NCBI GenBank assembly: GCA_000165345.1
Contig: CM000431.1
Coordinates: 128,001-192,000, forward strand
Direction of reading: 5' to 3'
Length of the DNA: 64,000 bases
The stretch's first letter is position 1. Every line of letters begins with the position of its first letter. The notes under the pieces are model-generated. The model was not told where the DNA came from. It searched no databases and saw nothing but the letters and a program-made list of their open reading frames with translations. This document shows positions 6,001 through 54,450 of the stretch, piece by piece. A program made the position numbers and the translations under genes.

Positions 6001-8083
6001 TTTTACTTCCTCCTGTCTCTACTGCAAACTCATCTCTAAGCACTACTTCAAGTTTTGTCTCTCTGAGCAAAACTCTGAAAGCCATGAAAGGAGTCTCAGA
6101 GCTAATAGCCCCAAACTGCTTGACAGTTGGAGAGGATTCCATATATAAAGGGTTCTCACTTTGAGATTTATCAAAAGATCCCAAATTCTGCTTAGATTCT
6201 GAAGTATTTTTATCCCCATCCTCCAAAGAATGATCAGAAAGACAGTCGAAAAATTGGAGATCTTCCATAGTCTGTTGAGCAAGAAATGCCTCATCTAACT
6301 CCACAGATCCATTAAAATTTTCATACTCTTCCTGTTTATTCTGCTCATCCTCGCTCTCCTGAGCATCAAAGAAAACATCATCAGCGCTATTCAAAGGAAC
6401 AGAAGAGATCCTATGGAACTTAAAAAGCCATTGAATCCAACTTCCAGACCCTCCTCCAGTAGCTTGAGAATCGCTATGGCTTGTCCTTCTAAAAGAATGA
6501 ATTTCCAACCTCTTTCCAACCCATTGATGTACTAGAGATGTATGCAAGGATACAAATCTAGAGAAAGGAACCCTAAGTATGTAATATTCTGAAAACTGTC
6601 TGGAAAAGTCTAAGAGCAGATCATTAAAGAGCCCACCATCGAAATACGGTCCAATGGAATCAAAAGTCATCTTTTCCTCAAAGTATTTGTGAAATTCCAT
6701 AGTATAATCCCTACAATACATTGATATCTTAGCTTCAGTAAAGTCTTCCTGGAGGCGAATATAAAGTGAAGAGTTATAACTTGACCTGGAAAATCGATGG
6801 GAACCAGAAATTGAAGAAATATCAGCTCTCCTATCCCTTATAATGCATCCTATTGCATATCTCCACCAAAGCTTTGCATTACCAATTACAGGAACATTTG
6901 GTCTATATAAAAACTTCCTCTCCAACATTGTCTTTCCCAATTCAATCTGTTTATTAAATGCCTGAATTTGGTTTAATATTCCTCCACAGTATGTGATTAT
7001 CTGTTCAGAAACTGTTACATAAATCTCTTCCAATACTCCATATATTGTGTATATTGGCATCTTAGATGCGTTAAACAAATCCTTTCTCTGTCTCAAAAGG
7101 AGCTTACAACAGAATGGATGCACAACCTGGTCCAACTCTTTTGGGGTCTCCTTTAAATTAGTTTCTCCATCTGTTGCCTCCCTTGCCGTATAGATTGAAA
7201 GGCCATCCAAATCCAGTATTCTATAAGAAAAGTCACTGGAATCTTTTTTCTGAAAGAATGGCTCAAACAACTTTTCGTCAGAACATTCACTCCTGGAACA
7301 AAATATTTCTTTCACTAACCCCAGATGTTCCTCGTACCCATGAATTTGGTCCGGACCCAATTCACTATTTACCTCCCTTGATGCCGAATTATTACCACTA
7401 ATATTAGTATCTTCATTTATACCAGAACCAACTGGTTTGGGGATAACCAAATCTTGGTCTACTAAAACCTGACTCAAATTTGGGATTGACCTAACTTCAA
7501 GAGAATCCAATACCAACCCACAATTCAACTCTTTGTTGGCTGAATCGCCAAGTTTAATATGAATCCTTCTAAACTTCAATCTTACATCTTGAATTAAAAC
7601 AGAGACTATTCTGCTCAAAAATGGTTTGCTTCCTCCTTTGCTACTGCTTCCCTTGACGCTAAAGTACTCATCCTCTGCCAACTCTGCCATAAAGTGAATA
7701 TTCCAGTGCTCTATTAACCGAAGTCTTTCTGAAATAACCAAACTCTCAATTTTCTCTGAATCAAACTCATTATGATCTATAAAACTTGCGTATAAATTCA
7801 CATCATCTATCTCTACAACTAATGGAGAACTGCTACCAGGTCTTAATATATTACTATAAGGAATCGATATGTTAATTGTCTCTATACAGCCGTACTTGAC
7901 TTTTATTGGAAGCCTTAATTGCTCCAAAAATCCTTCTTTTATCTTCACATTTCTGAGTTGTAGCTTGCCTGAATTTAATCCAAGCTCAAAACTATCCTCT
8001 GACACATTCTCTAAATACTTTCCTATAAATGTAGTAGCCCATTTAGACACAAAGCCTGCTACACGAGACACTGCTCGCCTCAT
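1..8083 (-). CDS. VPS13: VPS13-like bridge-like lipid-transfer protein (chorein-N). The gene is truncated by the window: ATG at 8083, reading down past position 1 with no stop (about 2694 codons in the window).
   Basis: Reverse-strand translation from the ATG at 8083 gives MRRAVSRVAGFVSKWATTFIGKYLENVSEDSFELGLNSGKLQLRNVKIKEGFLEQLRLPIKVKYGCIETINISIPY..PLVVEIDDV, which matches the VPS13 chorein-N pattern. The same frame (top coordinate = 1 mod 3) holds at spot checks near 6298 and 4861. The ORF track reports no minus ORF in that frame (it needs a stop inside the window), and the short minus ORFs it lists are all in the other frame. Confidence 0.7.
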   Translation of the reverse strand, partial: MRRAVSRVAGFVSKWATTFIGKYLENVSEDSFELGLNSGKLQLRNVKIKEGFLEQLRLPIKVKYGCIETINISIPYSNILRPGSSSPLVVEIDDVNLYASFIDHNEFDSEKIESLVISERLRLIEHWNIHFMAELAEDEYFSVKGSSSKGGSKPFLSRIVSVLIQDVRLKFRRIHIKLGDSANKELNCGLVLDSLEVRSIPNLSQVLVDQDLVIPKPVGSGINEDTNISGNNSASREVNSELGPDQIHGYEEHLGLVKEIFCSRSECSDEKLFEPFFQKKDSSDFSYRILDLDGLSIYTAREATDGETNLKETPKELDQVVHPFCCKLLLRQRKDLFNASKMPIYTIYGVLEEIYVTVSEQIITYCGGILNQIQAFNKQIELGKTMLERKFLYRPNVPVIGNAKLWWRYAIGCIIRDRRADISSISGSHRFSRSSYNSSLYIRLQEDFTEAKISMYCRDYTMEFHKYFEEKMTFDSIGPYFDGGLFNDLLLDFSRQFSEYYILRVPFSRFVSLHTSLVHQWVGKRLEIHSFRRTSHSDSQATGGGSGSWIQWLFKFHRISSVPLNSADDVFFDAQESEDEQNKQEEYENFNGSVELDEAFLAQQTMEDLQFFDCLSDHSLEDGDKNTSESKQNLGSFDKSQSENPLYMESSPTVKQFGAISSETPFMAFRVLLRETKLEVVLRDEFAVETGGSKIDGQEGLRMIKRSALMGSLRSFGLEFIQSDSRISLLSVLQEFNLDYSDPDEERFQIIYEDESLVQDEKMWFTFYYLNKKSSICNVQGSSRRRSSLSMSSDFSMDRSISKRLETSFPESSKTTIKINVEKCYAIFYSNVVSALVNAINKYNKSIGKSRGEGIKHKSKTRIDNHMACTESGSTDISEKRDINSQGDGFLQNSGLMDVDIQIETPILVFCHKVDPRLEGAIYNVISFGKISISNNDSEILRGYELEESSLDISSPQSRFENNSFDLQSFINKGVGGGIQVSPYYRYVLSEKSTYWFKCIQSLCYYAKIEEIYLSIYSDFQSGTTGIEKDEQKIRARIQDTSNIHRRESGKSEKRSPKLPKGVDMVNSYRLFSIDYIDIKLNLLSYKRYNMLDETWMKYIKLFGVLTQLDPFSQDLFEERSFMNLVLSTNSVCLDSKPTGGGSIGEIQLGDVLKNIYSSIQINSITSNFDPQVYQSIYLNMIQWMDDSCLSEYFNLGRKLTREKEFKMFKLGLNIQLFWFLRLNSLKFDFVSDNNSWMNVGTRDIQVLNFIHDHYRLVNFSISQLSMDYFLRIKEAEREGGYLNSKDESQECKGIKRIPLFSLSNTFSFVRFPTSQYHFIEEELSLEKARDEKVKWLNRSRSGYSQSNQVQVRTEIGSIIIYLRPLILQELLCLFKRTTSPYISTEQEIKSKKDQDLGSEIGVKTSDKWTRYLIDANVCNFELVAFQRDTEFFKLVFENTVSICDHDTRRDIIVRVIRMKAYNMVNGRKDLCFFKMDSSVESSIMEVKMISHQRAQDIEDLIHGRLSKMISSSEMLVEAENITLVLFLDAFLHNIYYFSYLIDNIQSFVYYLEEDNVKDSEVVKSSKSSSLILPSQEKVGGEIEGGSDVCVPLRSMNFRNSKLIIPSVSVDDADPDKVSSVEMFIELFNFNNKSLIRQVSDPSMIYLYIFRMMNVRMRQIWGLYLEEENYGITEGRSSIPFGIIPDLNFHLRRYTCSEGMNNSFDMNCFIESKQKEAELNLYPETLSLLIKAFSGNLMNYDPFVKQLTNLSSGTISDPEFMISLKEEKLQDDQFIIGTKKKRYVPQLIQHRFIGRRAALRFQDSIQEGESSSIIPTGRFEDQDIQPSNSISVSFPLIRINLIKDWDWKNKQLIGFDGNVLQVEGKETKEGSIQTVSIVRIKGINLFMSKFPQNQSFTFNLLLSSLTFNDEQNPSFLISIPDSFHHSDVDSNFGTGYCIQDQTQDQDHKQERGDSESNKRLEKTNFEDQHYFTVYTKEAYFENYLESYFNALKPIVEEDQNLQENQNPRRERDLEQPIEVQYYSFKEDSDDIRDNKKTNTSCSSWRIRIESPVINTDCDIQSLFGIYDWYSDYSRAFCLPNSDIIEQENSRKDENNSRFLVDLMEVNLSLKKFSCILASNTGLRTKVNLIGTYDLGYLSKKEKSQDGIQGENDLEQLFESNLNISISSSKLGYHMADFGSFVIWDGLEHQIIHNIISKGIEAALKTNRSLKLISQPITLQIHYPHVLDLYDVLLSMQKSLSKRSQLSRNSDLYRSLTNGISERFTSSQEFLGIGSSKAKEELSINVIIQNSRLILLNSIEDFSGIPLFMIFVQSNNLILSSRSYLIDHPISITNSGDFSLWIMNPRHGYFEPIIEGCNFNLALDKLVQNDGFSPRNKSCSSKVTKRLNFHLLSALNLNISPWTIRTILRHYGAWNTRGCLLSSSVKPFRPILVINQSGYDIQLIGYPNFDTFQNSKNNNFIDPGSTCNIINDGTEIVLDQINYCFQPSNIQIFQIHIGRAKIKEYCKNEDQINFERLFSTEKVINLDNTGRFAIFIRNLKDTKMDYENKSLQNGFNSNCLLFESPYLFYQVEHRNIKDQLGVEKILRILSPLELSNEISMDLQVFFTDGLFSSRVLPNSKIPIPFNLETNNYLCYNKVSKDLKEDDNKTNPVKYNEYYKLKINDFLKDIIKENENLNKYRITEKKEKKRIYFVQK

Positions 8084-8877
8084 TCCTCCTTCTTCAAGAC
8101 CACTGGCATTACAAACCTTCTCAACTTGCCTTTTATAGTTCTATTTGTCTCAAAGAAAAATTTAAAGTACTTAATTTTTTCTTTTTAATTAATTTTTCTT
8201 TGTTTTTTTAAAATTCTTTTTCCTATTTGCCCGCCTTTTTCAGACATGCAAAAATATTTTGTTGCATGTGGGGTGATAAATGTTAAAATTACAAAAATGG
8301 TACAGATAGCCAAAATGTTTTGAAGTATTTAGAAGGAAAAATTAGGAGTTTAAATTGTTTCTAGGTTTTTTTCTACGCAACTTATTATAACCCAACCATG
8401 TTCCTATAATTGTTTTATAACTACCTTTTTGACTATTTACTACATTTGTGTCTGAATTAATTATATATATGGTGTATAAAATATAGTATATTTTCTATAG
8501 TACATTATACTCTTTCCATCTTATTCGAGCTTTTTCAGCACAAAAACCCTTTCTTAGCTTTCAAAGTATTTTCATTTCTGGAACTTGACTCTAAAGGAAA
8601 CAAAAAACTGCTGAGAAAATGAGCTAATACATTTTTATTATTAATATTATTACTTTTATTAAAATATGGCTCAATTTAGCTGTGGGTCAAATATTACGTG
8701 TGCATGCAACTTCTCCCCTCATGGAGGTTTTTGTCAATTCATCACAAAGAATTCGAGAAATTACTAGAGCAGGGAAAAAAAAAGTAACTGCTCTTCTTTA
8801 AAATTTATCAAAAACAAGTTTCCATCGTTACTTATCTTTTTTAAACCATCCCCTTTAAGTACCTTAATCTTCTAAAT

Positions 8878-11268
8878 TTATCTGCTTGATTCTGAGTAAA
8901 AAAAATCATGATATTTAGGGCTCTTTAATACTGCTTGTTTCTGAGTTTGAGGCCTCGTATCATATCCTAAGTTAATATTTCTTCCAGAATGAAGTTGAAG
9001 AGTGTTTGCCTGTGACTGAGCTACATAATATGGTATAGTTTTTTCTGCTTCTCCGCCTTCACCTGAGTTCATATACTCAGGAGAGAACGTTGTATCCTCC
9101 ACAGAAACTATACTTTTTTTCTCTGGTGGAGCTATGTTTGAATCATAGCTGATACTTTTTTGGCTCATATGTACAATTTTTGACCCTTTTCTTGCTAGAA
9201 TTGGTTTTATTGAAGCAAGTTGCAAACTATTTAGCTTATTCCTAATTATTTCCTTGTTTGAATTGTCCACATTTTGAGCAGATTCAGTATCATCTGACCT
9301 TCTTCTCAAAAAGAAGACGCAACAAAACATTAATATAAGCAGAATCAATAGAATTCCAATAACTACCCCAATGATTAACTTTTTATTGACTGTTCGTTCT
9401 ATTACATCAAAATGCCCTTCTATTGACTTTTCCATCTTTACCTGCCCTGCTTCATTCAAATAACTCAATTCTTGGGTTTCTTGTGGATCATCGCTTTCAG
9501 AGTTAACATACTCTCCTGCTCCAAATCCCAATAATGAGTTTTCTGCCTCTTTATCAGAATTCATATCTATAATCCCAGAGTCCCTCTTGACTATGTTATT
9601 GCCTGTCAAAGAATTTGAGTTTTTTTTCACATAGGCGCTAGTCCTCACATTCTCTGTCTTTGGAGTATAGAGCGACTTTCCTGTAGTGTAGAATCGTGGC
9701 CTAAGAGTGGTTGTTGTGTTTTTAGTTGCTGTAGTGCTTTTCTTTGTGGTTGTCGTTTCTGTTGTTGTGGTTGTTGTTGTTGTGGTTGTGGTTGTGGTTG
9801 TGGTTGTGGTTGTGGTTGTTCTCGTAGTGGTTGTTGTAGTATTTGTAGTGGTGGAGGTGGAGGTATGTTTAGAACTGTTAGCAGGGTTATTCTTAGTGAA
9901 ATCATTATCAGAGGAAGTTGTGGTATTCGGGAATACTACTCCTTTAGAGGAAATGGTTGAAACATTACTTGAATAAACTTCTTCAACTCCTGAATTTCTC
10001 CCAATTGAAGAATAGTCTGAGAAAATAGGTTTTGTAACAGGAACCAATATATCTTCAATAGAGTCAGAACTCTGCTTGTAGATCATCTCCTCCAGGGTAT
10101 CGTTTCTTTCTTCATTCGCACGCCCGGATTCTGTACTATCAGACTCAAAACTTCCAGATGAGCTTCTATCCAAAGGATGGTATGTTGGTTGAGCGCTTAA
10201 ACCAATGAGCTTCATTTCATCAGACAAAGCTGGAATAGTACCTGGATCCTGATCCCAATAAAATGTTTTCTTCTGCTTATACCTTGGAAGATCCAAATAA
10301 GAATTATGGTAAACTTGGTCCCCTCCTTCGTTAGTTGAATCCTCTTTCCAGTTAAAGTTGATACTAGGAAAGTTTAACGAACTCTGATACGAGCTCCAAG
10401 CTGAGTCCAGGATATTTGAGACATTTTGACAAAGACCAACTGATAAATTATTCTCCCAAGCATCTGTACAGTTCAAATTATTGTAACCTGGAAGATCAAG
10501 CTTTGGCTCTTTACTAATAATTTCATCAGTCTGCTTAATTAGCTCTGAATATTTATTGGGATTCAGCCCACCAGAATCATAAGCTACTGTACCACAAACT
10601 GCACAAGAAAGCTCAGAATCTATAAGCCAACACGGCCTTCTTCCTAACCCTCCAATATCAAAAAAGCCACACTTTTCAAAGGGAAATTTGAATCTTAATA
10701 ACCAGCTTGCATTATAACTTGATGTCCAATTAATTTCAGAATCTCGAACTGATACGGGACTTCCACTATCTATCCAGTACCATCCTGGCGGATACCTGAA
10801 AAATGCATACTTTCTAAGTCCGACAAAACATCCATTTGCAGTCTTATGAATATCCCCTTGTTCCACAAGAGTTCTTCTGATTGCTTCTTCATCTGATAAC
10901 TTATATACTGAAGCCAATGTTACTGGGTACTCATTGGTTTCTTTAGACCCATTTCTTCTTCTTGTCTCTACTTCAGTTCCACCTAAATCATTGCAAGCCT
11001 TAAAACCGTGGGAAAATGTCCTAGGCCGGTCAAAAGTGACCAGCTTGAAACATCTTGTTTTCTCACCATTTGAAATCCATCCTTCCGGACAATTTGCATG
11101 GCCAGTATCTCCTAACTTGCTAACTTCTCTTCCAAAAACCCCAGAAACTACTATTAAACTTAATAATACTAAATTTGCACAATAGTGATTTGCCTATTAA
11201 ATTATATTAGACGCTACCGAGTCAAACATACCTATTAAACAATCCTTTAATTCATTAATCAGCCTCAT
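8878..11268 (-). CDS. C-type lectin domain mucin-like type-I membrane glycoprotein (CpClec-like). Two exons: 11268..11232 and 11168..8878.
   Basis: Track ORF 8878..10917 begins with a TTG translated as M, and the frame stays open upstream to 11168. The upstream part reads ...VLLSLIVVSGVFG|REVSKLGDTGHANCPEGWISNGEKTRCFKLVTFDRPRTFSHGFKACNDLGG...LASVYKLSDEEAIRRTLV...CFVGL...WYWIDSG...CGFFD..., a CTLD signature. It is followed by a poly-Thr mucin stretch, one TM helix (IIGVVIGILLILLILMFCCVFFL) and a cytoplasmic tail with YxxΦ-like motifs. No in-frame ATG lies before the upstream stop. A candidate exon 1 (ATGAGGCTGATTAATGAATTAAAGGATTGTTTAATAG, MRLINELKDCLI) ends at a GTATGT donor. A 63-nt intron ending TTTAG joins it in phase to exon 2 (1+2291 nt = 764 codons), giving signal peptide MRLINELKDCLIVLLSLIVVSGVFG. 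Confidence 0.7.
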
Positions 11269-18026: not shown

Positions 18027-18812
18027 ATGAAAGGAGTTTTATGTTTAGTTCTTATTCAGCTGTGGCTTATAATAGGTAGGTTTGTTATATTTTATAGAGC
18101 TGACTTATTTGAAGAATTTCTGAGAGAATTACAATGGATCTAAAAATTGTAGTCTTTACAGTTAATTAAAATATGGTTAAATGGTCGGCTAAAATTCAAT
18201 AAATATTTAAATACGCTTCTTTTTTTTAGGAAAACTCTCAGTTTCTGCAAATAAGGTCTTAAACAACTACGAATATTGGGAAGATAAAATCGGTTCTATT
18301 TCCATAGATAGCCAAGCAAGTAATATTAGTACAGGAGTTAAGAAGAATTCCGCATCATACATAGGAGAAAACATTAAACCCTCAAACTTAGAAGTGCAAG
18401 GAAACCAAAGAATTTTGTCTGCTAGTATTAGTACTAGGCCAAAGAACAATCTTAAAACTTTAGATTTTAAGGATAATGAAATAAATGAAAAAACTCTGAT
18501 TGGAGCCACTAATAGTCCTAAAAACTGTGAATGCAAGGTTACAGTAAGTTATAAAAAAATAAATGAGTTATACTAGGCTCACAAGATGCTTTATTAAATT
18601 ATTCACAAATATATTACTAATTTCTACTTTTTTTCCATTAGAATGACTCTTGCTGGTCAAGGTCAGCATGTATTGGAATTGCAAGTACAATTTCCGTCTC
18701 TAGCCTTTTTATATTCATCGCTTTAATGTGGCTTGTTCAAGTTCTCTCAACTCATGCTGCAAAAGAAGAACATATCATGTTGAAAAATAAACTCAAAAAA
18801 CAGAAAACATAA
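18027..18812 (+). CDS. Small, previously unannotated type-I membrane protein of about 177 aa. Three exons: 18027..18075, 18230..18543, 18642..18812.
   Basis: Exon 1 ATGAAAGGAGTTTTATGTTTAGTTCTTATTCAGCTGTGGCTTATAATAG (MKGVLCLVLIQLWLIIG, a signal peptide) ends at a GTAGGT donor. Intron 1 ends TTTTTTTTAG, and exon 2 is in phase (2+312 nt), matching track ORF 18394..18576. A GTAAGT donor follows at 18544 and an acceptor CCATTAG| at 18641. Exon 3 encodes NDSCWSRSACIGIASTISVSSLFIFIALMWLVQVL.. (a TM helix) and stops at TAA 18810-18812. Confidence 0.5.
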
Positions 18813-19042: not shown

Positions 19043-19071
19043 TTGGCGCCAATTTGAGAAGATGTGGCGCC
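19043..19071. promoter_or_regulatory. Two E2F-like sites (TTGGCGCCAA at 19043-19052 and TGGCGCC at 19065-19071) about 100 bp upstream of the first SLC35C-like gene.
   Basis: tcttggcgccaatttgagaagatgtggcgccctg. Confidence 0.5.
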
Positions 19072-19171
19072 CTGATCTAAAACGATTTTTAGATCTATAA
19101 GGAGATAAAGATAAGACAGGAGAGAATTAGAAATAAAAAGCAAAAAAAAGAATTTAAACAGCAAAGTAAAA

Positions 19172-20470
19172 ATGGGTCACTCAAAGAATAAAAAGAGTAA
19201 CTCTTCGTCTGGCTCAGAAGCTGGAAAGGAATCTGAAAGGTTTATTTCATTCCTCCCAAATAGCGTTGCAACAGTATTGGCCATTTGCTCGTTTATAGCA
19301 GCTTCAATATCTTCAGTTTATTTCAACAATGGTGTTTTTAAGAAGCAAATCAAGTTTCCTGTCTTTGTTTCATGTGCACAACAGCTTGTTGGTATGATTA
19401 TAATGAGCATATTTGGATTAATAAGAATGGCAATCTCAAAATCCTCTGAAAGTGGTAATGGAAAAGATGGAGCTGAGGTACAAGCTAACGGTTCATCAGT
19501 AAGCAGCTGGAAGAAGGTGATGTACGCTATTCCAGTCGCATTCTTTTTCTCTTTCAATATATCATTTAACAATATCTGTTTAACTCATGGTAAAGTTTCA
19601 ACTTATGCTATGGCTAAGTCTACCACACTGATGTGGTCTTTATGCCTCCAATTTTTAATCTTGGGAATTAAAGTTAAGTTGACCTCACTCATTTCTTGTG
19701 CAATCATTATTTCTGGTGTTCTCATTGGAGCATTTGATCCAAAATCACTTGTTTTGGTTTCTTTAATTTATGGTTGTATCTCATCATTCTCTCAGAGCTG
19801 CTACAATATCACTCTCAAGTGGGTTCTCCCTAAGATTGGTAACGATTCTGCAGGTCTTCTTAAATATGTTCAAATGTGGTCAATTCTCTTCTTTTTCATT
19901 CCTATGTTTGGAACTGGAGAAGTTATCCCAGCATTTACAACATCTGGTTGCTTTGATTTCAATGATCTTAATAGAATGATTTATCTATGGGGTCTAATCA
20001 CCACATCAGCTCTTCTTGCCATTGGTGTTAACCAGAGTACTTATGTTGTCATTGGTTTAACCACTCCAGCAACATTCAATGTTTGTGGTTTGGTCAAGCA
20101 AGCCTTACAAACTATCGGTGGAATCTTCTATCTAGGAGAATCTCTACCAACTCAAACAATCATTGCAGTTTGTCTCACATTCTGTGGTTCTGCTTCATAT
20201 ACTGCATTCAATCACTTTGGATCAAAACCATCTATGTCACCTTCTGAATTGAAAGTTGTTGAGGAAAAATACAAGGAAGTTGCAAGACAATCTGTCGGTA
20301 CTGCTTCTGATGTATTTGAAAATGCCCAAGATGACATCCTAAAGAGAAGTGGAAGCAAGACTAAGAACATGATTACACCATTCACCTCAAAAAATCCAGA
20401 AGCCATTCCTCTTAAGGATGATATTGAGGAAGGTCTCCCAACTGGAAACAATAACGAAAACAGAAACTAA
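19172..20470 (+). CDS. Nucleotide-sugar transporter, SLC35C/GDP-fucose-transporter-like (TPT/DMT superfamily). Paralog 1 of 3 in tandem.
   Basis: 432-aa, about 10-TM protein. FNNICLTHGKVSTYAMAKSTTLMWSLCLQFLILGIKVKLTSLISCAIIISGVLIGAFD and TPATFNVCGLVKQALQTIGGIFYLGE...CGSASYT line up by eye with the human SLC35C1 blocks [38 protein letters not shown]...GGFWLGVD and SPLTHNVSGTAKACAQT...GGSSAYT. Confidence 0.8.
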   Translation: MGHSKNKKSNSSSGSEAGKESERFISFLPNSVATVLAICSFIAASISSVYFNNGVFKKQIKFPVFVSCAQQLVGMIIMSIFGLIRMAISKSSESGNGKDGAEVQANGSSVSSWKKVMYAIPVAFFFSFNISFNNICLTHGKVSTYAMAKSTTLMWSLCLQFLILGIKVKLTSLISCAIIISGVLIGAFDPKSLVLVSLIYGCISSFSQSCYNITLKWVLPKIGNDSAGLLKYVQMWSILFFFIPMFGTGEVIPAFTTSGCFDFNDLNRMIYLWGLITTSALLAIGVNQSTYVVIGLTTPATFNVCGLVKQALQTIGGIFYLGESLPTQTIIAVCLTFCGSASYTAFNHFGSKPSMSPSELKVVEEKYKEVARQSVGTASDVFENAQDDILKRSGSKTKNMITPFTSKNPEAIPLKDDIEEGLPTGNNNENRN

Positions 20471-20957
20471 TTATAGTTCGTTAAATTCTACATTTGTTTA
20501 AATTTCATTCCCCGATGCCTATTCCCCTGTTTTTCTCCATCTAAAACCAATGTTTCTAAACTAATCAATTGCAGAAATATAAACTGTTTGTGGAATTCCT
20601 GTGCCATGTTGCATTCTTTAACAAATTACTTGTTGATGAATTTCCACTCTTATATGTATTAATAATGAAGTAGCCTTATATTACTTCCACCCCACTTTCC
20701 CACACTATTATTTTAAAATGTGCCGCTTTTACCGCCCTCGGTACCTTTGCCCGCTAAAAAGATCTTTGTGAATTTTTCATGTGGAATATCCAAAAATTAA
20801 AAGGCGCCTTTGAGTGATGATACTCAAACAATTAGTGGAACTTGTGATAATTTCATATGAAATTTGTCGAGAGAATAAGAATTTAAACCGCTAGGGAAAA
20901 GAATATATTATTATCAAAACTCTCAGATTATTTTACCATTAACCTTGAACTTTAAAA

Positions 20958-22142
20958 ATGAGTAAAGATTCAGAAAGACCAGAAATCTCTTTTATGGGCT
21001 TGCCAAGGCTGGCGAGTGCTAGTATTGCCATTGCAGTTTATGTTGTATGCTCAATTGGTTGTGTATACGCAAATAAATGGCTTCTAAGTAATGTAGGAGC
21101 TTGCCATGGTTTTATTCCCTTAGTACAACAACTTATTGGAGCCATTTTTGTGAGAACTATGGTGTATATCACAGGAATCTGTGGTATTGGCTCAGATAAT
21201 CAAAATCCTAGCTCTGATAAAACTAGTCAAAACGAAAAACAAAATGAATCACTCGTGAGCAGGCTCTGGAACAGATATAAGTACATCTGGCCAGCATCCT
21301 TTTGCTTCTCCTCCACAATTGTTTTGAACAATGCTTGTTTATCTATGGCAAAGCTTTCAACATATTCTGTTGCAAAATCCACAACTTTAATCTGGAACGT
21401 TCTCTTCCAATTCATTCTCCTCAGAATCAAGCTCCCAGTTAGTACAATCTTGTCCTGCTTCCTTATTCTTGCTGGTGTGACTATAGGTTCCTTGGATACC
21501 AGTACTTTGGCCCCTATGGCAGTTATTGCAGGCTGTTCATCCTCGATTTTCCAGGCTCTTTATAATACATGTATTGCCAGGGCTCTCCCTAAGACAAATA
21601 ATGATACCTCAGAGGTTTTGGTTAGGAATCAAGAGCTCTCCTCTGTGTTTCTTGTTATATATATTCTTGCCTCTAAAGAGCTTGTCAATTTATTCATGCA
21701 CTCACCATGCTTTGATTTATCCTCATCTAAGTTCTTAAGCTGCTGGGCTATATTCTTCCTCACCACTGCATTCGCAGCAGGTCTCAACAAGTTCACATTC
21801 ATGGTTATTGGACTTACTGAGCCTTCGACATTCTCAGTCATTGGGTTCACTAAAGCAGGTTTACAAACCGCCGGTGGATGGTTCATTTACAAGGATCCAG
21901 CATCTATCAAATCTGTTACTTCTGTAGTTTTCACACTTTCTGGATCTTTGATATATGGTATTACCAGGGGATCTAAGAAATCAGAATCAAAAAAGGAACA
22001 GGTAGAGGAAATCAGAAGACTGACTAGATGCTCCGCAGCGTCAGTTGGTGATATCGATGCAGTTCCCTCCCCCAGGGACGAAGAAGCTAAGAAGTCTGCC
22101 TCAAACGATGAAAAACAAAAACTTATCACAAGCAAAGTCTAA
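20958..22142 (+). CDS. Nucleotide-sugar transporter, SLC35C-like. Paralog 2 of 3.
   Basis: 394 aa. The same conserved blocks are present in diverged form (NNACLSMAKLSTYSVAKSTTLIWNVLFQFILLRIKLPVSTILSC; EPSTFSVIGFTKAGLQTAGGWFIYKD...SGSLIYG). Confidence 0.75.
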   Translation: MSKDSERPEISFMGLPRLASASIAIAVYVVCSIGCVYANKWLLSNVGACHGFIPLVQQLIGAIFVRTMVYITGICGIGSDNQNPSSDKTSQNEKQNESLVSRLWNRYKYIWPASFCFSSTIVLNNACLSMAKLSTYSVAKSTTLIWNVLFQFILLRIKLPVSTILSCFLILAGVTIGSLDTSTLAPMAVIAGCSSSIFQALYNTCIARALPKTNNDTSEVLVRNQELSSVFLVIYILASKELVNLFMHSPCFDLSSSKFLSCWAIFFLTTAFAAGLNKFTFMVIGLTEPSTFSVIGFTKAGLQTAGGWFIYKDPASIKSVTSVVFTLSGSLIYGITRGSKKSESKKEQVEEIRRLTRCSAASVGDIDAVPSPRDEEAKKSASNDEKQKLITSKV

Positions 22143-22340
22143 GCTATATGTTATGTGTGACCCACCAACCGTACTTAAGTAAAACACATTTTTTTCAAAT
22201 TATTTCCATATTATTGGTATTTGTATTGATATTTCCTAGCCATCATAAAGTTCATTTTTTTTAGTAAACCTCTTAATTTAGTGCTGAATTAGCATTGCAA
22301 GTAGATACTTAATTTTGCTGTGTTTTTGTTCTAGTAGGTG

Positions 22341-22383
22341 CGGCCCGCCGGCGCGGCATGTGTTTGTGGAACGGGCCCGCCGG
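22341..22383. promoter_or_regulatory. GC-rich island with a direct repeat GGCCCGCCGG (x2) and a GCGCGG core, in an otherwise AT-rich intergenic region upstream of SLC35C-like paralog 3.
   Basis: cggcccgccggcgcggcatgtgtttgtggaacgggcccgccgg. CCCGCC/GCGCG resemble E2F-type cores. Its GC content stands out strongly against the local background. Confidence 0.4.
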
Positions 22384-22948
22384 ATTTGTTGGGTCTTCCA
22401 CTACCGCCTAAAGGAATATGGGTAATTAAAAGACAAAAAAGATGGATTGTCTACTGTATTGCTATTTATTACAAGTAACTTGAATATATAATTTTACATT
22501 CCGTATTTGAAACTAGTTTAACTTATCTTACCTTTCGAGTAATATTCTTTAATTTCTATGTATTATTAGTGAGGAGACAGAGACGTCTAAATTTGGTACG
22601 GTACCACTAGAGACTTAGTAATAATAATTAAATGATATTTAAAACCTATGAAATGTATACCAAGAGAGAAAAAGGAGAAATGAGAAATAATACGTAAACG
22701 TTGCCTGATAATTAATAGTTAATTTAAGCTTCATTCAAATAAATTAAATAGAAGTTTGTATATTAATGGCATGTCTATATGGCCATTTAAATGGATTGTA
22801 AATTCAAATCTCACTAGCAAAGACACATTTAATAATAAAATTATCATTCTACAAACTTTAATAAGAACAGAAAAATTGTTCTAGTTTTGAAGAATTTATC
22901 TGATATTTATTTGAAGAAAGTTTTATTACTTCTGTAGTTAATACGAAA

Positions 22949-24118
22949 ATGGCAGGTGATTTCGGAAACAAGTCAAATTCCCAAGAGGAAGTAAGATACT
23001 GCTTTGGCTTACCAAATGCAGTTGCTGCTCCTATTGCCATGTGCGCATTCATTGTCTCATCTATTGGTTGCGTATACTACAACAAGAAGTGCTACCAAAA
23101 GGATCTTCCATTCCCAGTCTTCATGTCTTGGGCTCAACAACTCATTGGTATGGCTATCATGTCAACTTTCTTAACTATTAGAGGTATTCTCAGTGGAAAC
23201 GAAGAAATGTCCGCAAGTATCCCATTGAGCAAGAGACTTTACAGATATAAGTATGCAGTTTTCGTAGCTTTCTGCTTCTGTATGAACATTTCTTTGAACA
23301 ATATGTGTCTCAAGGATGCCAAGGTTTCTATGTATGCTGTCGCAAAGTCAACAACTGTATGCTACTCACTCCTCTTACAATACTTCTTATTGGGTATCAG
23401 AGCTAAGCTCTCATCTGTTTTGTCTTGCTTCGTTATTATTGGTGGTGTTATCGTTGGTATCTCAGATAAGGAATTCGGTCTTGAGCCACGTTCATTCTTC
23501 ATGGGCACTTTATCATCATTCTTCCAATCTCTCTACTCTGTTGCAGTCAAATACACTGTCCCACACTGTGACAACTCCACTACTGAACTCTTACTCCACG
23601 TACAAGAGCTCTCATGTATCATTCTTTTGGTCCTCTCTGTTGCCTGGGGTGAAACTTCAAAGGTCTTATCATCTAATGTATTTGCTTTCGTCTCTGCTCC
23701 ACTCAGTGCCCTCTGGTTATGGGTTTTGATGGCTGGTTCCGCTATCCTCGCTATCTGCTTAAACCAATGCACATACTTGGTCGTCTCCCTTACTACCCCA
23801 GCTACATACAACGTTACTGGTTTAGTTAAACAAGCCCTCCAAACTGCCGGTGGTTTCATCTTCTGGGGTGACAAGCTCAAGCCAGCTCCAGTTGGCGGTG
23901 CATGCCTCACACTCACTGGTTCAGCCATCTACACACTCACCAAGCTCTGGGATAACACTCCAAAGAACACCAAACAAGAAGAAACCATCAAGGAACAAGC
24001 TCGTCTCTCAGTTGGTACTGGTTCTGATGCCTTTGAAAACCCACTAACCGAGAATGGAAACCAAAACGAGAAGCAACCTCTCATCCCAGAGGACAAATGC
24101 GAGAAGGGTCAGGCTTAA
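22949..24118 (+). CDS. Nucleotide-sugar transporter, SLC35C-like. Paralog 3 of 3.
   Basis: 389 aa. NNMCLKDAKVSMYAVAKSTTVCYSLLLQYFLLGIRAKLSSVLSC and TPATYNVTGLVKQALQTAGGFIFWGD...TGSAIYT. This is the paralog most similar to paralog 1. Confidence 0.8.
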   Translation: MAGDFGNKSNSQEEVRYCFGLPNAVAAPIAMCAFIVSSIGCVYYNKKCYQKDLPFPVFMSWAQQLIGMAIMSTFLTIRGILSGNEEMSASIPLSKRLYRYKYAVFVAFCFCMNISLNNMCLKDAKVSMYAVAKSTTVCYSLLLQYFLLGIRAKLSSVLSCFVIIGGVIVGISDKEFGLEPRSFFMGTLSSFFQSLYSVAVKYTVPHCDNSTTELLLHVQELSCIILLVLSVAWGETSKVLSSNVFAFVSAPLSALWLWVLMAGSAILAICLNQCTYLVVSLTTPATYNVTGLVKQALQTAGGFIFWGDKLKPAPVGGACLTLTGSAIYTLTKLWDNTPKNTKQEETIKEQARLSVGTGSDAFENPLTENGNQNEKQPLIPEDKCEKGQA

Positions 24119-24325: not shown

Positions 24326-24356
24326 TGGCGCCGTTTTGTTTTGCATGGTTGGCGCC
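24326..24356. promoter_or_regulatory. Two E2F-like sites (TGGCGCC at 24326-24332 and TTGGCGCC at 24349-24356) with an intervening GCATGG, between SLC35C-like paralog 3 and the PAN-domain gene.
   Basis: gtctggcgccgttttgttttgcatggttggcgcctaatgg. Confidence 0.45.
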
Positions 24357-34613: not shown

Positions 34614-36089
34614 TCACTTAATTAAAGAAGTCTTTTTGTTAATAGAGAAGAAGTAGGTAGAGTTGTGGGAGTTCCAACGTTTTGTGTATAATAGTATAAA
34701 TATAGAGAGAATTAAGATGAAGGAATTAATAATAATTGCAATAATAGTTGGAAAGAAGAAGTTATCTTTATAGTTTCTATGAATAAAAGAGTCCCAAAGA
34801 TTGTATACTAAGGTAAAGAATCCTGCAATTGTGGAAGAAATACCTTGAATTGAATTTAAGTGAGTATAACCAAATGCGGAAGTAAAGAGACTGAAGGAAC
34901 ATCCAATAAAGTAGGAATAGCAGAATACACAAATGACAATTCCAAATAAATGTGATAAGAAGCAATACGGAATAAAGTTGGCAAAAAGGACCAAAATTAA
35001 TAGAGAAGATGCAACAAACAAAACCAAAAATAAGTAGATACCCATTAGATCTACAAAGATACCCACTAAAATAGCTGCAATAAATGTAGTTCCAAGCAAA
35101 AGACCAAATATATTTATAATAGATTCAGAGTATTGTAAGTCTCCAGAAGTCTGATCAAGTAGAATTGATTTCATATTGACAGTAAAGTAAAGCCTTACAA
35201 ACCACATTAAAGAGTATATAATAGTAAAAAGAATGGTTGGAATAGAAATAAGCTGCTCTTTGAATGTTAAAGTCCACTGATAAGGAATATCTTCTTTACA
35301 TCTATTAACTTCAACAACCATTTGACTATTAATTAATGAAAGACGCTCCTCATGATCAAATTCAGTAAGAGAGTTCATAATTTGAGATCTGGAAATAGAA
35401 ACTCTTGTACAATAATCAACAGTTGGAGTGACAAAAGGATGTTTAGGAATAATAAAGTAGAATCCAATCATCCAGAGAATTGAAAAGAAACAATTGATAA
35501 TTATAATAAATTGTGTAGGATTAATTCCTAAATAATGGAAATCAATACCTTTAGAAGAAATATAACGAACTAAATTAACCATAATTTGCATATAAGCGAA
35601 ACTCATTCCAACAGAACCTCCCACCATTGCTACAACAAGATGTTTCTTTGAATCATAAAACACAGAAATAGAAGTCTTTGTTAAAGTTAGAAGTTGTGTA
35701 GAAATTCCCCACAAACATATTCCAATATATGGAAAGTAGAACCAAGTTTTATCCAAAAAAAAGCAGAAAATCCATCCCATAATGTGAAATGCTGCTGATA
35801 GAATAGCTGTATTCCTATTATTAAATAAATCCACAAAATAAGCACCCAAAACTCCTGATAATAGAAGTGAAGATGTACCAAGAGAACATAGACTATTCAT
35901 TGTAGTTAGCTTGAAGTCAGGATCTAACCAGTAATAGGCATCGTTATTCATTAATAATTCCTTTACAGCAGATGGCAATAAATATGGTGCTCCCACCATT
36001 GGTGCAGAAACCACATAAAATAATAATAATGTGGTACTGGAAAATCCCGATTTGGTTTGATTCTCACAAGTAAATGGTTTTTCCATCAT
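34614..36089 (-). CDS. Multi-pass membrane transporter, MFS-like. It forms a head-to-head pair with the gene at 36602..38083.
   Basis: 491 aa with about 12 predicted helices. A conserved-looking loop GVLGAYFVDLFNNRNTAIL resembles the MFS/MCT-type G..D.FG.R motif. Its architecture resembles the divergently transcribed neighbour. Confidence 0.5.
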   Translation of the reverse strand: MMEKPFTCENQTKSGFSSTTLLLFYVVSAPMVGAPYLLPSAVKELLMNNDAYYWLDPDFKLTTMNSLCSLGTSSLLLSGVLGAYFVDLFNNRNTAILSAAFHIMGWIFCFFLDKTWFYFPYIGICLWGISTQLLTLTKTSISVFYDSKKHLVVAMVGGSVGMSFAYMQIMVNLVRYISSKGIDFHYLGINPTQFIIIINCFFSILWMIGFYFIIPKHPFVTPTVDYCTRVSISRSQIMNSLTEFDHEERLSLINSQMVVEVNRCKEDIPYQWTLTFKEQLISIPTILFTIIYSLMWFVRLYFTVNMKSILLDQTSGDLQYSESIINIFGLLLGTTFIAAILVGIFVDLMGIYLFLVLFVASSLLILVLFANFIPYCFLSHLFGIVICVFCYSYFIGCSFSLFTSAFGYTHLNSIQGISSTIAGFFTLVYNLWDSFIHRNYKDNFFFPTIIAIIINSFILILSIFILLYTKRWNSHNSTYFFSINKKTSLIK

Positions 36090-36173: not shown

Positions 36174-36431
36174 GTGGCGCCTAAACGATAACGCAGGAAT
36201 GCTTGCATTAATAGATTTAGATCCAAATTAGATGATTTTTGTTAAATTTGTTAGAAGAAAACTTAAAAAAAAATATAGAATTCATGTTTAGCCACAGGCT
36301 TTCTTTTCATTGAAATTGTTTCCATCATTTCCCTTAGATAAGCACTTTCTTTAGTTAAAACAGTTTTTTTCCTTCATTTTAATATTTCATAAATAAAATA
36401 CGCACGCGGCGCCACATTCTTGGCGCCAAAT
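36174..36431. promoter_or_regulatory. Bidirectional promoter of the MFS-like pair, carrying three E2F-like sites (GTGGCGCCTAAA at 36174-36185, GCGGCGCCAC at 36407-36416, TTGGCGCCAAAT at 36420-36431).
   Basis: accgtggcgcctaaacg ... cgcacgcggcgccacattcttggcgccaaatcc. The intergenic region is 512 bp. Confidence 0.5.
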
Positions 36432-54377: not shown

Positions 54378-54450
54378 CTCCGACGCCGGGAATCGAACCC
54401 GGGTCGCATGGGTGAGAGCCATGTATCCTAGCCGACTAGACTACGTCGGA
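54378..54450 (-). tRNA. tRNA-Glu(CUC): tRNA-Glu (anticodon CUC).
   Basis: Reverse complement: TCCGACGTAGTCTAGTCGGCTAGGATACATGGCTCTCACCCATGCGACCCGGGTTCGATTCCCGGCGTCGGAG. It has a 7-bp acceptor stem, an anticodon stem CATGG/CCATG with loop CTCTCAC (anticodon CTC), and T-arm CCGGG-TTCGATT-CCCGG. It closely resembles the eukaryotic tRNA-Glu-CTC consensus. A T5 run follows the 3' end on the minus strand (Pol III terminator). Confidence 0.9.

What the first reader, a model, noticed from the sequence alone, without database searches (positions are those of the whole stretch)
19172..24118. Tandem array of three divergent SLC35C/GDP-fucose-transporter-like nucleotide-sugar transporter genes
Three same-strand paralogs (432, 394 and 389 aa) sit within 5 kb. 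Each has the two SLC35C signature blocks, with paralogs 1 and 3 closer to each other than to 2. Each has its own promoter (E2F-like sites before paralog 1, a GC-rich GGCCCGCCGG repeat before paralog 3).

A local expansion of Golgi sugar-nucleotide importers sits a few kb from a CTLD mucin and several secreted glycoproteins. This may reflect diversification of substrate specificity for mucin O-glycosylation or fucosylation.
Basis: partly seen in the sequence, partly recalled or inferred. Interest (0 to 1): 0.6.

Follow-up and report, generated by a model that had tools for sequence, protein, structure and literature searches.

The report
Known Cryptosporidium triple sugar-nucleotide transporter array
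The three neighbouring genes are real, but they are the already annotated Cryptosporidium parvum genes cgd3_490, cgd3_500 and cgd3_510, an ancient three-gene set of GDP-fucose-transporter-like membrane carriers kept in every Cryptosporidium species examined, whose cargo and cellular location are still untested.

Summary
Three same-strand, intronless ORFs of 432, 394 and 389 aa lie at the stated coordinates. All three pass Pfam TPT (PF03151). Paralogs 1 and 3 are closer to each other (43% identity) than either is to paralog 2 (32-35%).

The array is not new. The window is C. parvum chromosome 3 and the genes are cgd3_490, cgd3_500 and cgd3_510. [quoted passage not shown]

This work adds four points:
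- The array has the same order and flanks in six species, including the gastric C. muris and C. andersoni, so the triplication predates the genus radiation.
- All three copies are under strong purifying selection (dN/dS 0.03-0.08).
- The trio is a monophyletic, derived branch of the SLC35C1-like family, with a 10-helix nucleotide-sugar-transporter fold.
- Each paralog has its own genus-invariant residues where Vrg4 has its guanine-recognition FYNN motif (KYVQ, VRNQ, LHVQ).

"Golgi importers for mucin fucosylation" is unproven. The parasite cannot make GDP-fucose, and published proximity labelling places cgd3_490 near a feeder-organelle transporter. Novelty: already known. Interest is modest.

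The parts
19172..20470 (+). Paralog 1 = cgd3_490, 432 aa. SLC35C1-like TPT-family transporter with a long, conserved C-terminal tail.
   Evidence: ORF found. Pfam TPT 56.6 bits. [quoted passage not shown] Named cgd3_490 in PMC9713705. Orthologs are 68-93% identical in six species. Enriched in CpGT1 proximity labelling, 5/7/4 v 0/0/0 peptides.
20958..22142 (+). Paralog 2 = cgd3_500, 394 aa. The most divergent copy.
   Evidence: ORF found. Pfam TPT 32.2 bits. Orthologs are 63-86% identical. dN/dS 0.081 against C. ubiquitum. Among the top-10 transcripts in one condition and reported as expressed in sexual stages.
22949..24118 (+). Paralog 3 = cgd3_510, 389 aa. The most constrained and most highly expressed copy.
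   Evidence: ORF found. Pfam TPT 66.4 bits. AlphaFold2 model with pLDDT 83.3, pTM 0.83, 10 TM helices plus a C-terminal helix. Best solved-structure matches are Vrg4, TPT and SLC35B1. dN/dS 0.033. Top-10 transcript in infected ileum, and the highest-signal transporter listed in an oocyst microarray table.
19043..19072 (.). Two E2F-type GGCGCC boxes (TTGGCGCCAA and TGGCGCCC), 106-127 nt upstream of the paralog 1 ATG.
   Evidence: Sequence read. Motif enrichment of 16 v 0.55 expected in the window. A GGCGCC box sits at -101 to -122 in C. ubiquitum, C. felis and C. ryanae, and is absent in C. muris and C. andersoni.
20803..20808 (.). GGCGCC box 155 nt upstream of the paralog 2 ATG.
   Evidence: Sequence read. 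A box at -148 in C. ryanae; CCCGCC/GGCGGG boxes at about -230 in C. ubiquitum and C. felis.
22342..22383 (.). Two GGCCCGCCGG boxes in the long (806 nt) spacer between paralogs 2 and 3, 566-607 nt upstream of the paralog 3 ATG.
   Evidence: The only two copies in the window, with 0 expected. CCCGCC boxes lie at -566 to -630 in C. felis and C. ryanae. C. muris and C. andersoni have a GGCGCC at about -393.

Best explanation
What it is. The locus holds the known C. parvum genes cgd3_490, cgd3_500 and cgd3_510. They are three products of a tandem triplication that happened before the Cryptosporidium species diverged. All three have been kept since as separate, strongly constrained genes.

What each protein is. 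Each is a 10-helix member of the drug/metabolite-transporter fold, in the SLC35C1-like (GDP-fucose-transporter-like) branch of the TPT family.

How it most likely works (inferred from the family). Each works as an alternating-access antiporter. It moves a nucleotide-activated sugar across a membrane in exchange for the corresponding nucleoside monophosphate. The invariant TM9 lysine would hold the phosphate, and residues on TM7 and TM8 would read the base.

Why three copies persist. The copies differ in three ways:
- each has its own genus-invariant residues at the positions that align with the nucleotide pocket;
- each has its own conserved cytosolic tail;
- each has its own upstream GC boxes and a different reported expression pattern.
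I therefore think the copies have divided the work by substrate and/or membrane, rather than being redundant GDP-fucose importers.

Shown versus inferred. Shown here: gene structure, family placement, fold, age of the triplication, purifying selection and paralog-specific conserved sites. Inferred: antiport, substrate class and division of labour.
For: Genes and identity.
- ORFs and Pfam TPT hits.
- Identity to the annotated C. parvum proteins and the published description of the tandem trio.

Age and constraint.
- The same three-gene array, with the same flanks, is present in C. muris, C. andersoni, C. felis, C. ryanae and C. ubiquitum.
- Each orthogroup has 100% bootstrap support, the trio is monophyletic at 93-96%, and paralogs 1+3 group at 92-93%.
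- dN/dS is 0.03-0.08.

Family placement.
- An exhaustive profile search found 2191 relatives. The nearest are other Cryptosporidium paralogs, then gregarines, chromerids and colpodellids.
- Named relatives are 'GDP-fucose transporter 1-like' or 'C1'.
- The trio profile scores 112-129 bits against SLC35C1-type proteins. It scores 32 bits against another TPT protein and 13-22 bits against solved Vrg4, TPT and SLC35B1.

Fold. The model is confident and has 10 TM helices. Target-normalised TM-scores to Vrg4, TPT and SLC35B1 are 0.77-0.80.

Divergence between paralogs.
- 77 sites are at least 90% conserved within each orthogroup but differ between orthogroups. They are densest in TM8, TM7, TM6 and TM4.
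- These include the positions that align with the Vrg4 FYNN motif.

Expression. Different expression reports exist for the three genes.
Against: - No transport assay or localisation exists for any of the three proteins.
- Sequence is a poor predictor of substrate in SLC35 (PMC6789118).
- The deep nodes of my NJ trees are unresolved (6-45% support). The exact sister group, and the relation to the proven T. gondii GDP-fucose transporter, are therefore not fixed.
- SLC35C2, SLC35D and SLC35E references could not be included, because the AlphaFold database library was unavailable.
- Paralog-specific conserved sites could reflect differences in partners or lipid environment rather than substrate.
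Confidence: 0.8

Rival explanations
1. Host-interface scavengers. At least one of the three, most likely cgd3_490, sits at the parasite-host interface (feeder organelle or plasma membrane). It would import host cytosolic GDP-fucose or other nucleotide sugars or nucleotides that the parasite cannot make, in exchange for a parasite nucleoside monophosphate.
For: - The parasite lacks every route to GDP-fucose, UDP-GlcNAc and UDP-GalNAc, and is said to have to scavenge GDP-fucose.
- cgd3_490 is significantly enriched in miniTurbo labelling with the feeder-organelle transporter CpGT1: 5/7/4 v 0/0/0 peptides, P = 0.0079, similar to the bait itself. cgd3_510 is 3-fold enriched but not significant.
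- The authors of two papers raise this possibility for the family in general.
- Expression is very high for a Golgi housekeeping carrier.
- The long cytosolic tails are conserved across the genus, with an RxS..D motif and an EKQxL[IV] acidic-dileucine-like motif in paralogs 2 and 3.
Against: - The same proximity list contains ER and Golgi trafficking proteins (Sec16, Rab11, HSP70). The labelling could therefore have happened while the bait was in transit.
- cgd3_500 was not detected.
- No microscopy exists.
- A plasma-membrane nucleotide-sugar transporter has no clear precedent that I know of.
Confidence: 0.3
2. All three are conventional Golgi/ER GDP-fucose importers whose diversification serves mucin O-glycosylation or fucosylation.
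For: - Family placement is with SLC35C1-type proteins.
- The single T. gondii homologue, NST2, is required for O-fucosylation.
- C. parvum has one protein O-fucosyltransferase, cgd1_2440.
Against: - Six 'GDP-fucose transporter' paralogs serve a single fucosyltransferase, and O-fucose has not yet been detected in the parasite.
- Mucin O-glycans are HexNAc made from UDP-sugars.
- The TM7 FYNN guanine-recognition motif is KYVQ, VRNQ and LHVQ in the trio. It is YNN in animal SLC35C1-type proteins and FYNM in the probable T. gondii NST2.
- The Golgi localisation is not demonstrated.
Confidence: 0.3
3. They are sugar-phosphate or triose-phosphate/phosphate translocators, as the Pfam family name suggests, rather than nucleotide-sugar carriers.
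For: - The Pfam hit is to 'Triose-phosphate Transporter family'.
- The best solved-structure sequence match is the Galdieria phosphate translocator 5y78 (E = 5e-4).
- The parasite imports hexose phosphates.
Against: - PF03151 also covers the SLC35C1-type proteins found here.
- The trio profile scores 112-129 bits against SLC35C1-type proteins but only 22 bits against 5y78.
- The Lys-Arg pair of the translocator on TM9 aligns with Lys-Gln in the trio.
- The hexose-phosphate carriers identified in C. parvum are MFS-type CpGT1 and CpGT2.
Confidence: 0.07
4. The array is an assembly duplication, or a recent, strain-specific copy-number expansion.
For: None was found.
Against: - The copies are only 32-43% identical in protein, with no long DNA repeats between them.
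- The same three orthologs lie in the same order in six independently assembled species.
Confidence: 0.01

Closest known systems
[quoted passage not shown]
   Same: Same Pfam family and 10-TM fold. Shares the TM4 block (NNxCL...Y...[RK]S.T) and the TM9 block (T.P.T.N[VI].G..K...Q[TS]). The trio profile scores 112-120 bits against a tunicate 'GDP-fucose transporter 1-like' protein and against a human sequence recalled from memory, which is 54% identical to the tunicate protein.
   Different: Only 23-27% identical. TM7 YNN is replaced by YVQ, RNQ or HVQ. The TM4 Arg is Lys in all three. The trio has long, conserved C-terminal tails. There are three tandem copies, plus at least three more paralogs elsewhere in the genome.
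Toxoplasma gondii NST2 (TGGT1_267730), the genetically validated apicomplexan GDP-fucose transporter
   Same: Same family. A 467-aa T. gondii protein (P0049) matches the trio profile at E = 8e-53. The assembly accession GCA_000006565.2 is recognised from memory as strain ME49. It is probably NST2, because T. gondii is reported to have a single SLC35C1 homologue.
   Different: T. gondii has one gene, whereas Cryptosporidium has six family members. The T. gondii protein keeps FYNM and TSPLTFN..G..KA..QT, closer to the family consensus. T. gondii makes its own GDP-fucose (my own knowledge); Cryptosporidium does not. Orthology to any one of the trio is unresolved in my trees.
Other C. parvum SLC35C1-like paralogs (cgd4_3110 type of 680-740 aa; cgd8_1370 and cgd8_1440 types)
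   Same: They are the nearest relatives of the trio in the exhaustive search (199-263 bits) and share the same blocks.
   Different: They are unlinked and single copy, with different lengths and N-terminal extensions. Their TM7 motif is YNQ or YQL. The grouping of the trio with the cgd4_3110 type has only 45% support.
Fungal Vrg4 GDP-mannose transporter (solved structures 5OGE, 5OGK, 9S35, 9S36)
   Same: It is the best structural match to the cgd3_510 model (E = 4e-8, target-normalised TM-score 0.77). It gives the mechanistic template: antiport, TM7 base pocket and TM9 lysine.
   Different: 16% identity, and only 15 bits against the trio profile. The FYNN and GALNK motifs are not conserved as such.
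Human SLC35B1 (ER ATP/ADP exchanger)
   Same: Same fold (target-normalised TM-score 0.78). It shows that this fold can carry plain nucleotides.
   Different: A different SLC35 subfamily, scoring only 13 bits against the trio profile. There is no evidence that the trio carries free nucleotides.

Membership tests
Drug/metabolite transporter superfamily, nucleotide-sugar/TPT fold | Ten transmembrane helices arranged as in solved nucleotide-sugar transporters and phosphate translocators | tested here: met
   The AlphaFold2 model of cgd3_510 (pLDDT 83.3, pTM 0.83) has 10 TM helices plus a C-terminal helix. Foldseek gives E = 4e-8 to 9e-8 and target-normalised TM-scores of 0.77-0.80 to Vrg4, TPT and SLC35B1. 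The old annotation of '8 TM' is an undercount.
Pfam TPT (PF03151) | Score above the curated gathering threshold (30 bits) | tested here: met
   56.6, 32.2 and 66.4 bits, over about 280 of 291 profile positions.
SLC35C1-like (GDP-fucose transporter) subfamily | Closer in sequence to SLC35C1 orthologs than to other nucleotide-sugar transporter families | tested here: met
   The trio profile scores 112.5 bits against tunicate 'GDP-fucose transporter 1-like', 126 bits against a JGI 'GDP-fucose transporter C1', 32 bits against another TPT protein, and 13-22 bits against Vrg4, TPT and SLC35B1. InterPro and TransportDB labels reported in PMC9713705 agree. Caveat: SLC35C2, SLC35D and SLC35E references could not be scored.
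SLC35C1-like (GDP-fucose transporter) subfamily | Conserved TM4 and TM9 signature blocks, including the TM9 lysine | tested here: met
   Both blocks are present in all three paralogs and in all their orthologs. The Lys is invariant. The TM4 Arg is replaced by Lys.
GDP-sugar transporters (Vrg4 / SLC35C1 type) | TM7 F-Y-N-N motif, whose asparagines recognise guanine (PMC6789118) | tested here: not met
   The aligned positions read KYVQ (paralog 1), VRNQ (paralog 2) and LHVQ (paralog 3), each invariant across the genus. Animal and stramenopile SLC35C1-type proteins have YNN, and the probable T. gondii NST2 has FYNM.
GDP-fucose transporters | Transport of GDP-fucose in exchange for GMP | not testable with these tools
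   No transport data were found in the searchable literature. PMC9713705 states that the true substrates remain to be elucidated.
Golgi nucleotide-sugar transporters | Residence in the Golgi or ER membrane | not testable with these tools
   No localisation has been published. The only data are CpGT1 proximity labelling, with cgd3_490 enriched, cgd3_510 not significant and cgd3_500 absent.
Plastid-type phosphate translocators (TPT/GPT/PPT) | Lys-Arg pair on TM9 that binds phosphate (as I recall it from the 5Y78 structure paper) | tested here: not met
   In the profile alignment to 5y78, the translocator 'KR' aligns with 'KQ' in the trio. The overall score is only 22 bits.

The most novel reading that the evidence does not exclude
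One or more of the trio, with cgd3_490 the best candidate, is not a Golgi carrier. It would be a nucleotide-sugar-transporter fold redeployed at the feeder organelle to pull host cytosolic GDP-fucose, other nucleotide sugars or even purine nucleotides into the parasite. That would place it on the route of the still unidentified nucleotide import inferred genetically by Pawlowic et al. 2019. The altered base-recognition residues on TM7 and TM8 would be the signature of that change of cargo.
Probability: 0.18. Interest if true: 0.75.

Novelty: already known. Interest (0 to 1): 0.3.

Why it matters
The array itself is textbook annotation for this genome, so finding it again adds nothing. Its function does matter, for four reasons:
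- Cryptosporidium cannot make GDP-fucose, UDP-GlcNAc, UDP-GalNAc or purines.
- It carries six GDP-fucose-transporter-like genes for a single fucosyltransferase.
- Two of the three genes here are among its most abundant transcripts.
- The carrier behind host nucleotide uptake is unknown.

If one of these proteins works at the host interface, it would be a parasite-specific, highly expressed and strongly constrained drug target. It would also show an unusual redeployment of a Golgi transporter fold. The paralog-specific, genus-invariant pocket residues listed here give concrete positions to mutate.

Tried and rejected
- **Word-indexed protein searches.** Searches with paralog 1 and with the three-paralog alignment returned only Cryptosporidium proteins. 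The family had to be reached with the exhaustive profile search.
- **Search seeded with a remembered human SLC35C1.** This third word-indexed search returned no human entry. It gave only a tunicate and a nematode SLC35C1-type protein and some JGI-named fragments. The human sequence used in trees and motif tables is therefore recalled from memory, and is validated only by 54% identity to the tunicate protein.
- **Solved structures by sequence.** The single-sequence search found nothing. The profile search gave only weak hits.
- **AlphaFold database fold search.** This library was not available. SLC35C2, SLC35D and SLC35E could therefore not be compared.
- **Deep phylogeny.** NJ trees with 100 bootstraps resolve the three orthogroups and the trio. 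They do not resolve the trio's sister group or the position of the T. gondii protein, where support is 6-45%.
- **Other features in the array.** Tandem Repeats Finder found nothing, and Rfam found nothing within the array. The repeat search found only short matches at homologous codons.
- **C-type lectin near the array.** Pfam gives no Lectin_C hit in any neighbouring ORF, even at E<=1.
- **Apparent loss of paralog 2 in C. felis.** I first suspected a loss. It is an annotation gap, and the ORF is intact.
Full report
**Observation**

The window carries three ATG-initiated ORFs on the + strand. All three exceed the Pfam gathering score for the Triose-phosphate Transporter family PF03151, with 56.6, 32.2 and 66.4 bits against a cut-off of 30. 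The matches cover almost the whole profile.

Paralogs 1 and 3 share 42-43% identity. Paralog 2 is 32-35% identical to either. At the DNA level only a few matches of 24-33 nt, at homologous codons, link the copies. These are therefore old duplicates, not an assembly artefact.

**Identity and prior knowledge**

Paralog 1 is 100% identical to a Cryptosporidium parvum protein. [quoted passage not shown]

A 2022 reconstruction of Cryptosporidium glycosylation lists the genes as cgd3_490, cgd3_500 and cgd3_510, with the same three lengths. [quoted passage not shown] The finding is therefore real but already annotated and published.

**Age and maintenance of the array**

The same three genes lie in the same order and on the same strand in every species checked:
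- C. muris and C. andersoni, with proteins of 415, 394 and 391 aa;
- C. felis, C. ryanae and C. ubiquitum.

The flanks are the same where the fetched locus reaches them. A PAN-domain protein gene lies on the opposite strand downstream in all six species. An amino-acid transporter gene lies upstream in the window, C. muris, C. andersoni and C. ubiquitum.

C. parvum-C. muris orthologs are 68%, 65% and 74% identical. In NJ trees each orthogroup has 100% bootstrap support, the trio is monophyletic at 93-96%, and paralogs 1+3 are sisters at 92-93%. The triplication therefore predates the split of gastric and intestinal species.

dN/dS between C. parvum and C. ubiquitum is 0.059, 0.081 and 0.033 for paralogs 1, 2 and 3. 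All three are under strong purifying selection, with paralog 3 the most constrained.

**Family placement**

Word-indexed searches found only Cryptosporidium relatives. An exhaustive profile search of 1.84 billion representatives found 2191 relatives at E<=1e-3.

The three trio clusters score 583-598 bits. The next best hit scores 263 bits. The nearest relatives are:
- other Cryptosporidium paralogs (the 680-740 aa cgd4_3110 type, CMU_025300, and a C. canis 'GDP-fucose transporter');
- gregarines (Lankesteria, Porospora, Siedleckia) and Rhytidocystis;
- Cardiosporidium;
- the chromerids Vitrella and Chromera, and the colpodellid Alphamonas.

Where a source gives a functional name to a relative outside Cryptosporidium, the name is 'GDP-fucose transporter C1' or 'GDP-fucose transporter 1-like'.

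Scores of the trio profile against reference proteins:

| Target | Bits |
|---|---|
| Tunicate SLC35C1-type protein | 112.5 |
| JGI-named 'GDP-fucose transporter C1' | 126 |
| Ectocarpus homologue | 129 |
| Another TPT-family protein (Taxus) | 32 |
| Solved phosphate translocator 5y78 | 22 |
| Solved GDP-mannose transporter 9s35 | 15 |
| Solved SLC35B1 | 13 |

One caveat remains: SLC35C2, SLC35D and SLC35E references could not be scored, because the AlphaFold database library was unavailable.

**Fold**

An AlphaFold2 model of cgd3_510, built on a 73-sequence alignment, is confident (pLDDT 83.3, pTM 0.83). It has ten transmembrane helices plus a C-terminal helix. The best solved-structure matches are Candida Vrg4, the Galdieria phosphate translocator and human SLC35B1, with target-normalised TM-scores of 0.77-0.80. 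The '8 transmembrane domains' of the original annotation is an undercount.

**Binding-site comparison**

In Vrg4 the TM7 FYNN motif recognises guanine, with N221 most important for purine selectivity. K289 of the TM9 GALNK motif binds the phosphate (PMC6789118).

In my alignments the TM9 lysine is invariant in the trio. The TM7 positions that align with YNN differ by group:

| Group | TM7 motif |
|---|---|
| Animal and stramenopile SLC35C1-type proteins | YNN |
| Probable T. gondii NST2 | FYNM |
| Other Cryptosporidium paralogs | YNQ or YQL |
| Paralog 1 | KYVQ |
| Paralog 2 | VRNQ |
| Paralog 3 | LHVQ |

Each trio motif is invariant across the genus.

More generally, 77 positions are at least 90% conserved within each orthogroup yet differ between orthogroups. 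They are densest in TM8 (10 of 31), TM6 (7 of 28), TM7 (5 of 22) and TM4 (7 of 23). This pattern is what a division of substrate specificity would produce. It does not prove one, and sequence is a poor predictor of cargo in this family.

**Regulatory claims**

- Before paralog 1, two GGCGCC boxes (TTGGCGCCAA and TGGCGCCC) sit 106-127 nt before the ATG. TGGCGCC occurs 16 times in the window against 0.55 expected, mostly between genes. A box at -101 to -122 is kept in C. ubiquitum, C. felis and C. ryanae, but not in the AT-rich gastric species.
- Paralog 2 has a GGCGCC at -155.
- GGCCCGCCGG occurs twice, at 22342 and 22374, and nowhere else in the window. These copies lie 566-607 nt upstream of the paralog 3 ATG. 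CCCGCC boxes lie at similar distances in C. felis and C. ryanae.
- The spacer between paralogs 2 and 3 is 750-810 nt in all six species, about twice the length of the other spacers.

E2F-type motifs are reported as the dominant motif in open chromatin and intergenic regions of C. parvum. That GGCGCC is the Cryptosporidium E2F-type core is my own recollection. 'Own promoter for each gene' is therefore plausible and partly supported by positional conservation. No transcript mapping was available.

**Neighbourhood**

A poly-Thr, single-TM mucin-like ORF lies at 8878-10917 (-), about 8 kb upstream of the array. It fits CpClec (cgd3_440) by gene order. Pfam detects no lectin domain in the ORF as listed.

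The other neighbours are an mRNA triphosphatase, a glutathione peroxidase, an amino-acid transporter, a PAN-domain protein and two MFS transporters. In a genome with a gene every 2-3 kb, this proximity carries little weight.

**Function**

What the literature reports:
- It has a single protein O-fucosyltransferase.
- O-fucose has not yet been detected on its glycoproteins, and its mucin O-glycans are single HexNAc units (PMC9713705).
- cgd3_510 is among the ten most abundant parasite transcripts in infected mouse ileum, and cgd3_500 is in the top ten in another condition.
- cgd3_510 is the transporter named, with the highest signal, in an oocyst microarray table.
- 'A GDP-fucose transporter' is among the most expressed oocyst genes in C. 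hominis and C. baileyi.
- cgd3_500 is a candidate CDPK5 substrate with reported expression in late male and female stages.

Six 'GDP-fucose transporters', three of them this abundant, look excessive for one fucosyltransferase.

The supplementary data of Xu et al. 2024 give the only experimental hint on location. In miniTurbo proximity labelling with the feeder-organelle transporter CpGT1, peptide counts were as follows:

| Protein | Biotin | Control | Note |
|---|---|---|---|
| cgd3_490 | 5, 7, 4 | 0, 0, 0 | P = 0.0079 |
| CpGT1 (bait) | 9, 6, 5 | 0, 0, 0 | P = 0.01 |
| cgd3_510 | 8, 6, 4 | 4, 2, 0 | 3-fold, not significant |
| cgd3_500 | not found | not found | |

The same list contains ER and Golgi trafficking proteins, so the signal is ambiguous. 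The purine nucleotide importer inferred genetically in C. parvum is still unidentified.

**Conclusion**

The best-supported statement has three parts. The locus is an ancient, genus-wide tandem triplet of SLC35C1-family antiporters. Each copy is kept under strong constraint. Each has its own conserved pocket residues, cytosolic tail and upstream boxes, which points to a division of labour.

Whether that labour is Golgi GDP-fucose import, import of other nucleotide sugars, or scavenging at the host interface cannot be decided with sequence tools. I give roughly equal weight (about 0.3 each) to the conventional Golgi reading and to a host-interface role for at least one copy. As a discovery the array is already known. 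Its residual interest lies in the unresolved function.

Noticed in passing
L006 4005-5189 (C. felis, GCA_014529505.1 contig JABXOJ010000046.1): The C. felis annotation has no gene for paralog 2. It calls two small minus-strand genes (76 and 126 aa) there instead. tblastn shows an intact 394-aa ORF that is 84.5% identical to cgd3_500. This is an annotation gap, not a gene loss.
   Followed up: yes
window 24326-24356: Two TGGCGCC boxes lie about 210-235 nt past the stop of paralog 3, between the 3' ends of two convergent genes where no promoter is expected. GGCGCC boxes sit at the same distance (+202 to +214) in C. ubiquitum and C. felis. They may mark an unannotated or antisense transcript.
   Followed up: partly
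window 22143-22948 and the equivalent spacers in L001, L002, L006, L007, L008: The spacer between paralogs 2 and 3 is 750-810 nt in all six species, against 340-575 nt for the other two spacers where both ends are known. Its GC boxes lie at the far (5') end. This suggests a long 5' UTR, a UTR intron or another element ahead of the most highly expressed copy.
   Followed up: partly
window 20180-20467, 21960-22139 and 23950-24115 (C-terminal tails of the three proteins): The cytosolic tails are conserved across the genus. All three share [AT]-R-x-S-[VIA]-[GA]-x-x-x-D, a basic-x-Ser kinase-type site. Paralogs 2 and 3 share E-K-Q-[PK]-L-[IV], which resembles an acidic dileucine sorting signal. Paralog 1 has an invariant IPLK[DN]DIE[EQ]GL. 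This is relevant because cgd3_500 is reported as a candidate CDPK5 substrate.
   Followed up: partly
window 8878-10917 (-): This mucin-like ORF has a run of about 50 residues that is almost all Thr, one TM helix and a cytosolic tail. By gene order it is probably CpClec (cgd3_440). The listed ORF starts at TTG and Pfam finds no C-type lectin domain in it, so the lectin part may be divergent or lie partly upstream.
   Followed up: partly
window 34614-36089 (-) and 36602-38083 (+), with the spacer at 36175-36428: Two divergently transcribed MFS-type transporter genes have four TGGCGCC sites in the shared spacer. By numbering one should be cgd3_550, which is listed among the ten most abundant parasite transcripts in one condition.
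   Followed up: no
window 18211-18809 (+): A small gene just upstream of the array appears to have one intron (GTAAGT at about 18546, and an AG at about 18641). It ends in a hydrophobic helix. Orthologs of 163-178 aa are annotated at the same place in C. muris, C. andersoni, C. ryanae and C. ubiquitum.
   Followed up: no
window 2-8140 (-): A stop-free reading frame of at least 2713 codons runs off the left end of the window. The ORF tool therefore does not list it.
   Followed up: no
window 54378-54450 (-): One tRNA gene (Rfam RF00005, 62.5 bits). It is the only Rfam match in the window.
   Followed up: no
window 19145-19171 and 20874-20900: A shared AAGAATTTAAAC 12-mer lies just upstream of paralog 1 (from -27) and of paralog 2 (from -84). 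It may be a start-site element or a chance match.
   Followed up: no
Trees (proteins P0035, P0036, P0040, P0041): Free-living relatives of apicomplexans (Vitrella, Chromera, Alphamonas) carry close homologues of the apicomplexan SLC35C1-like proteins, and they group with them rather than with animal SLC35C1. This fits vertical descent better than the earlier proposal that apicomplexans took their fucose transporter from animals. Support for the deep nodes is low.
   Followed up: partly
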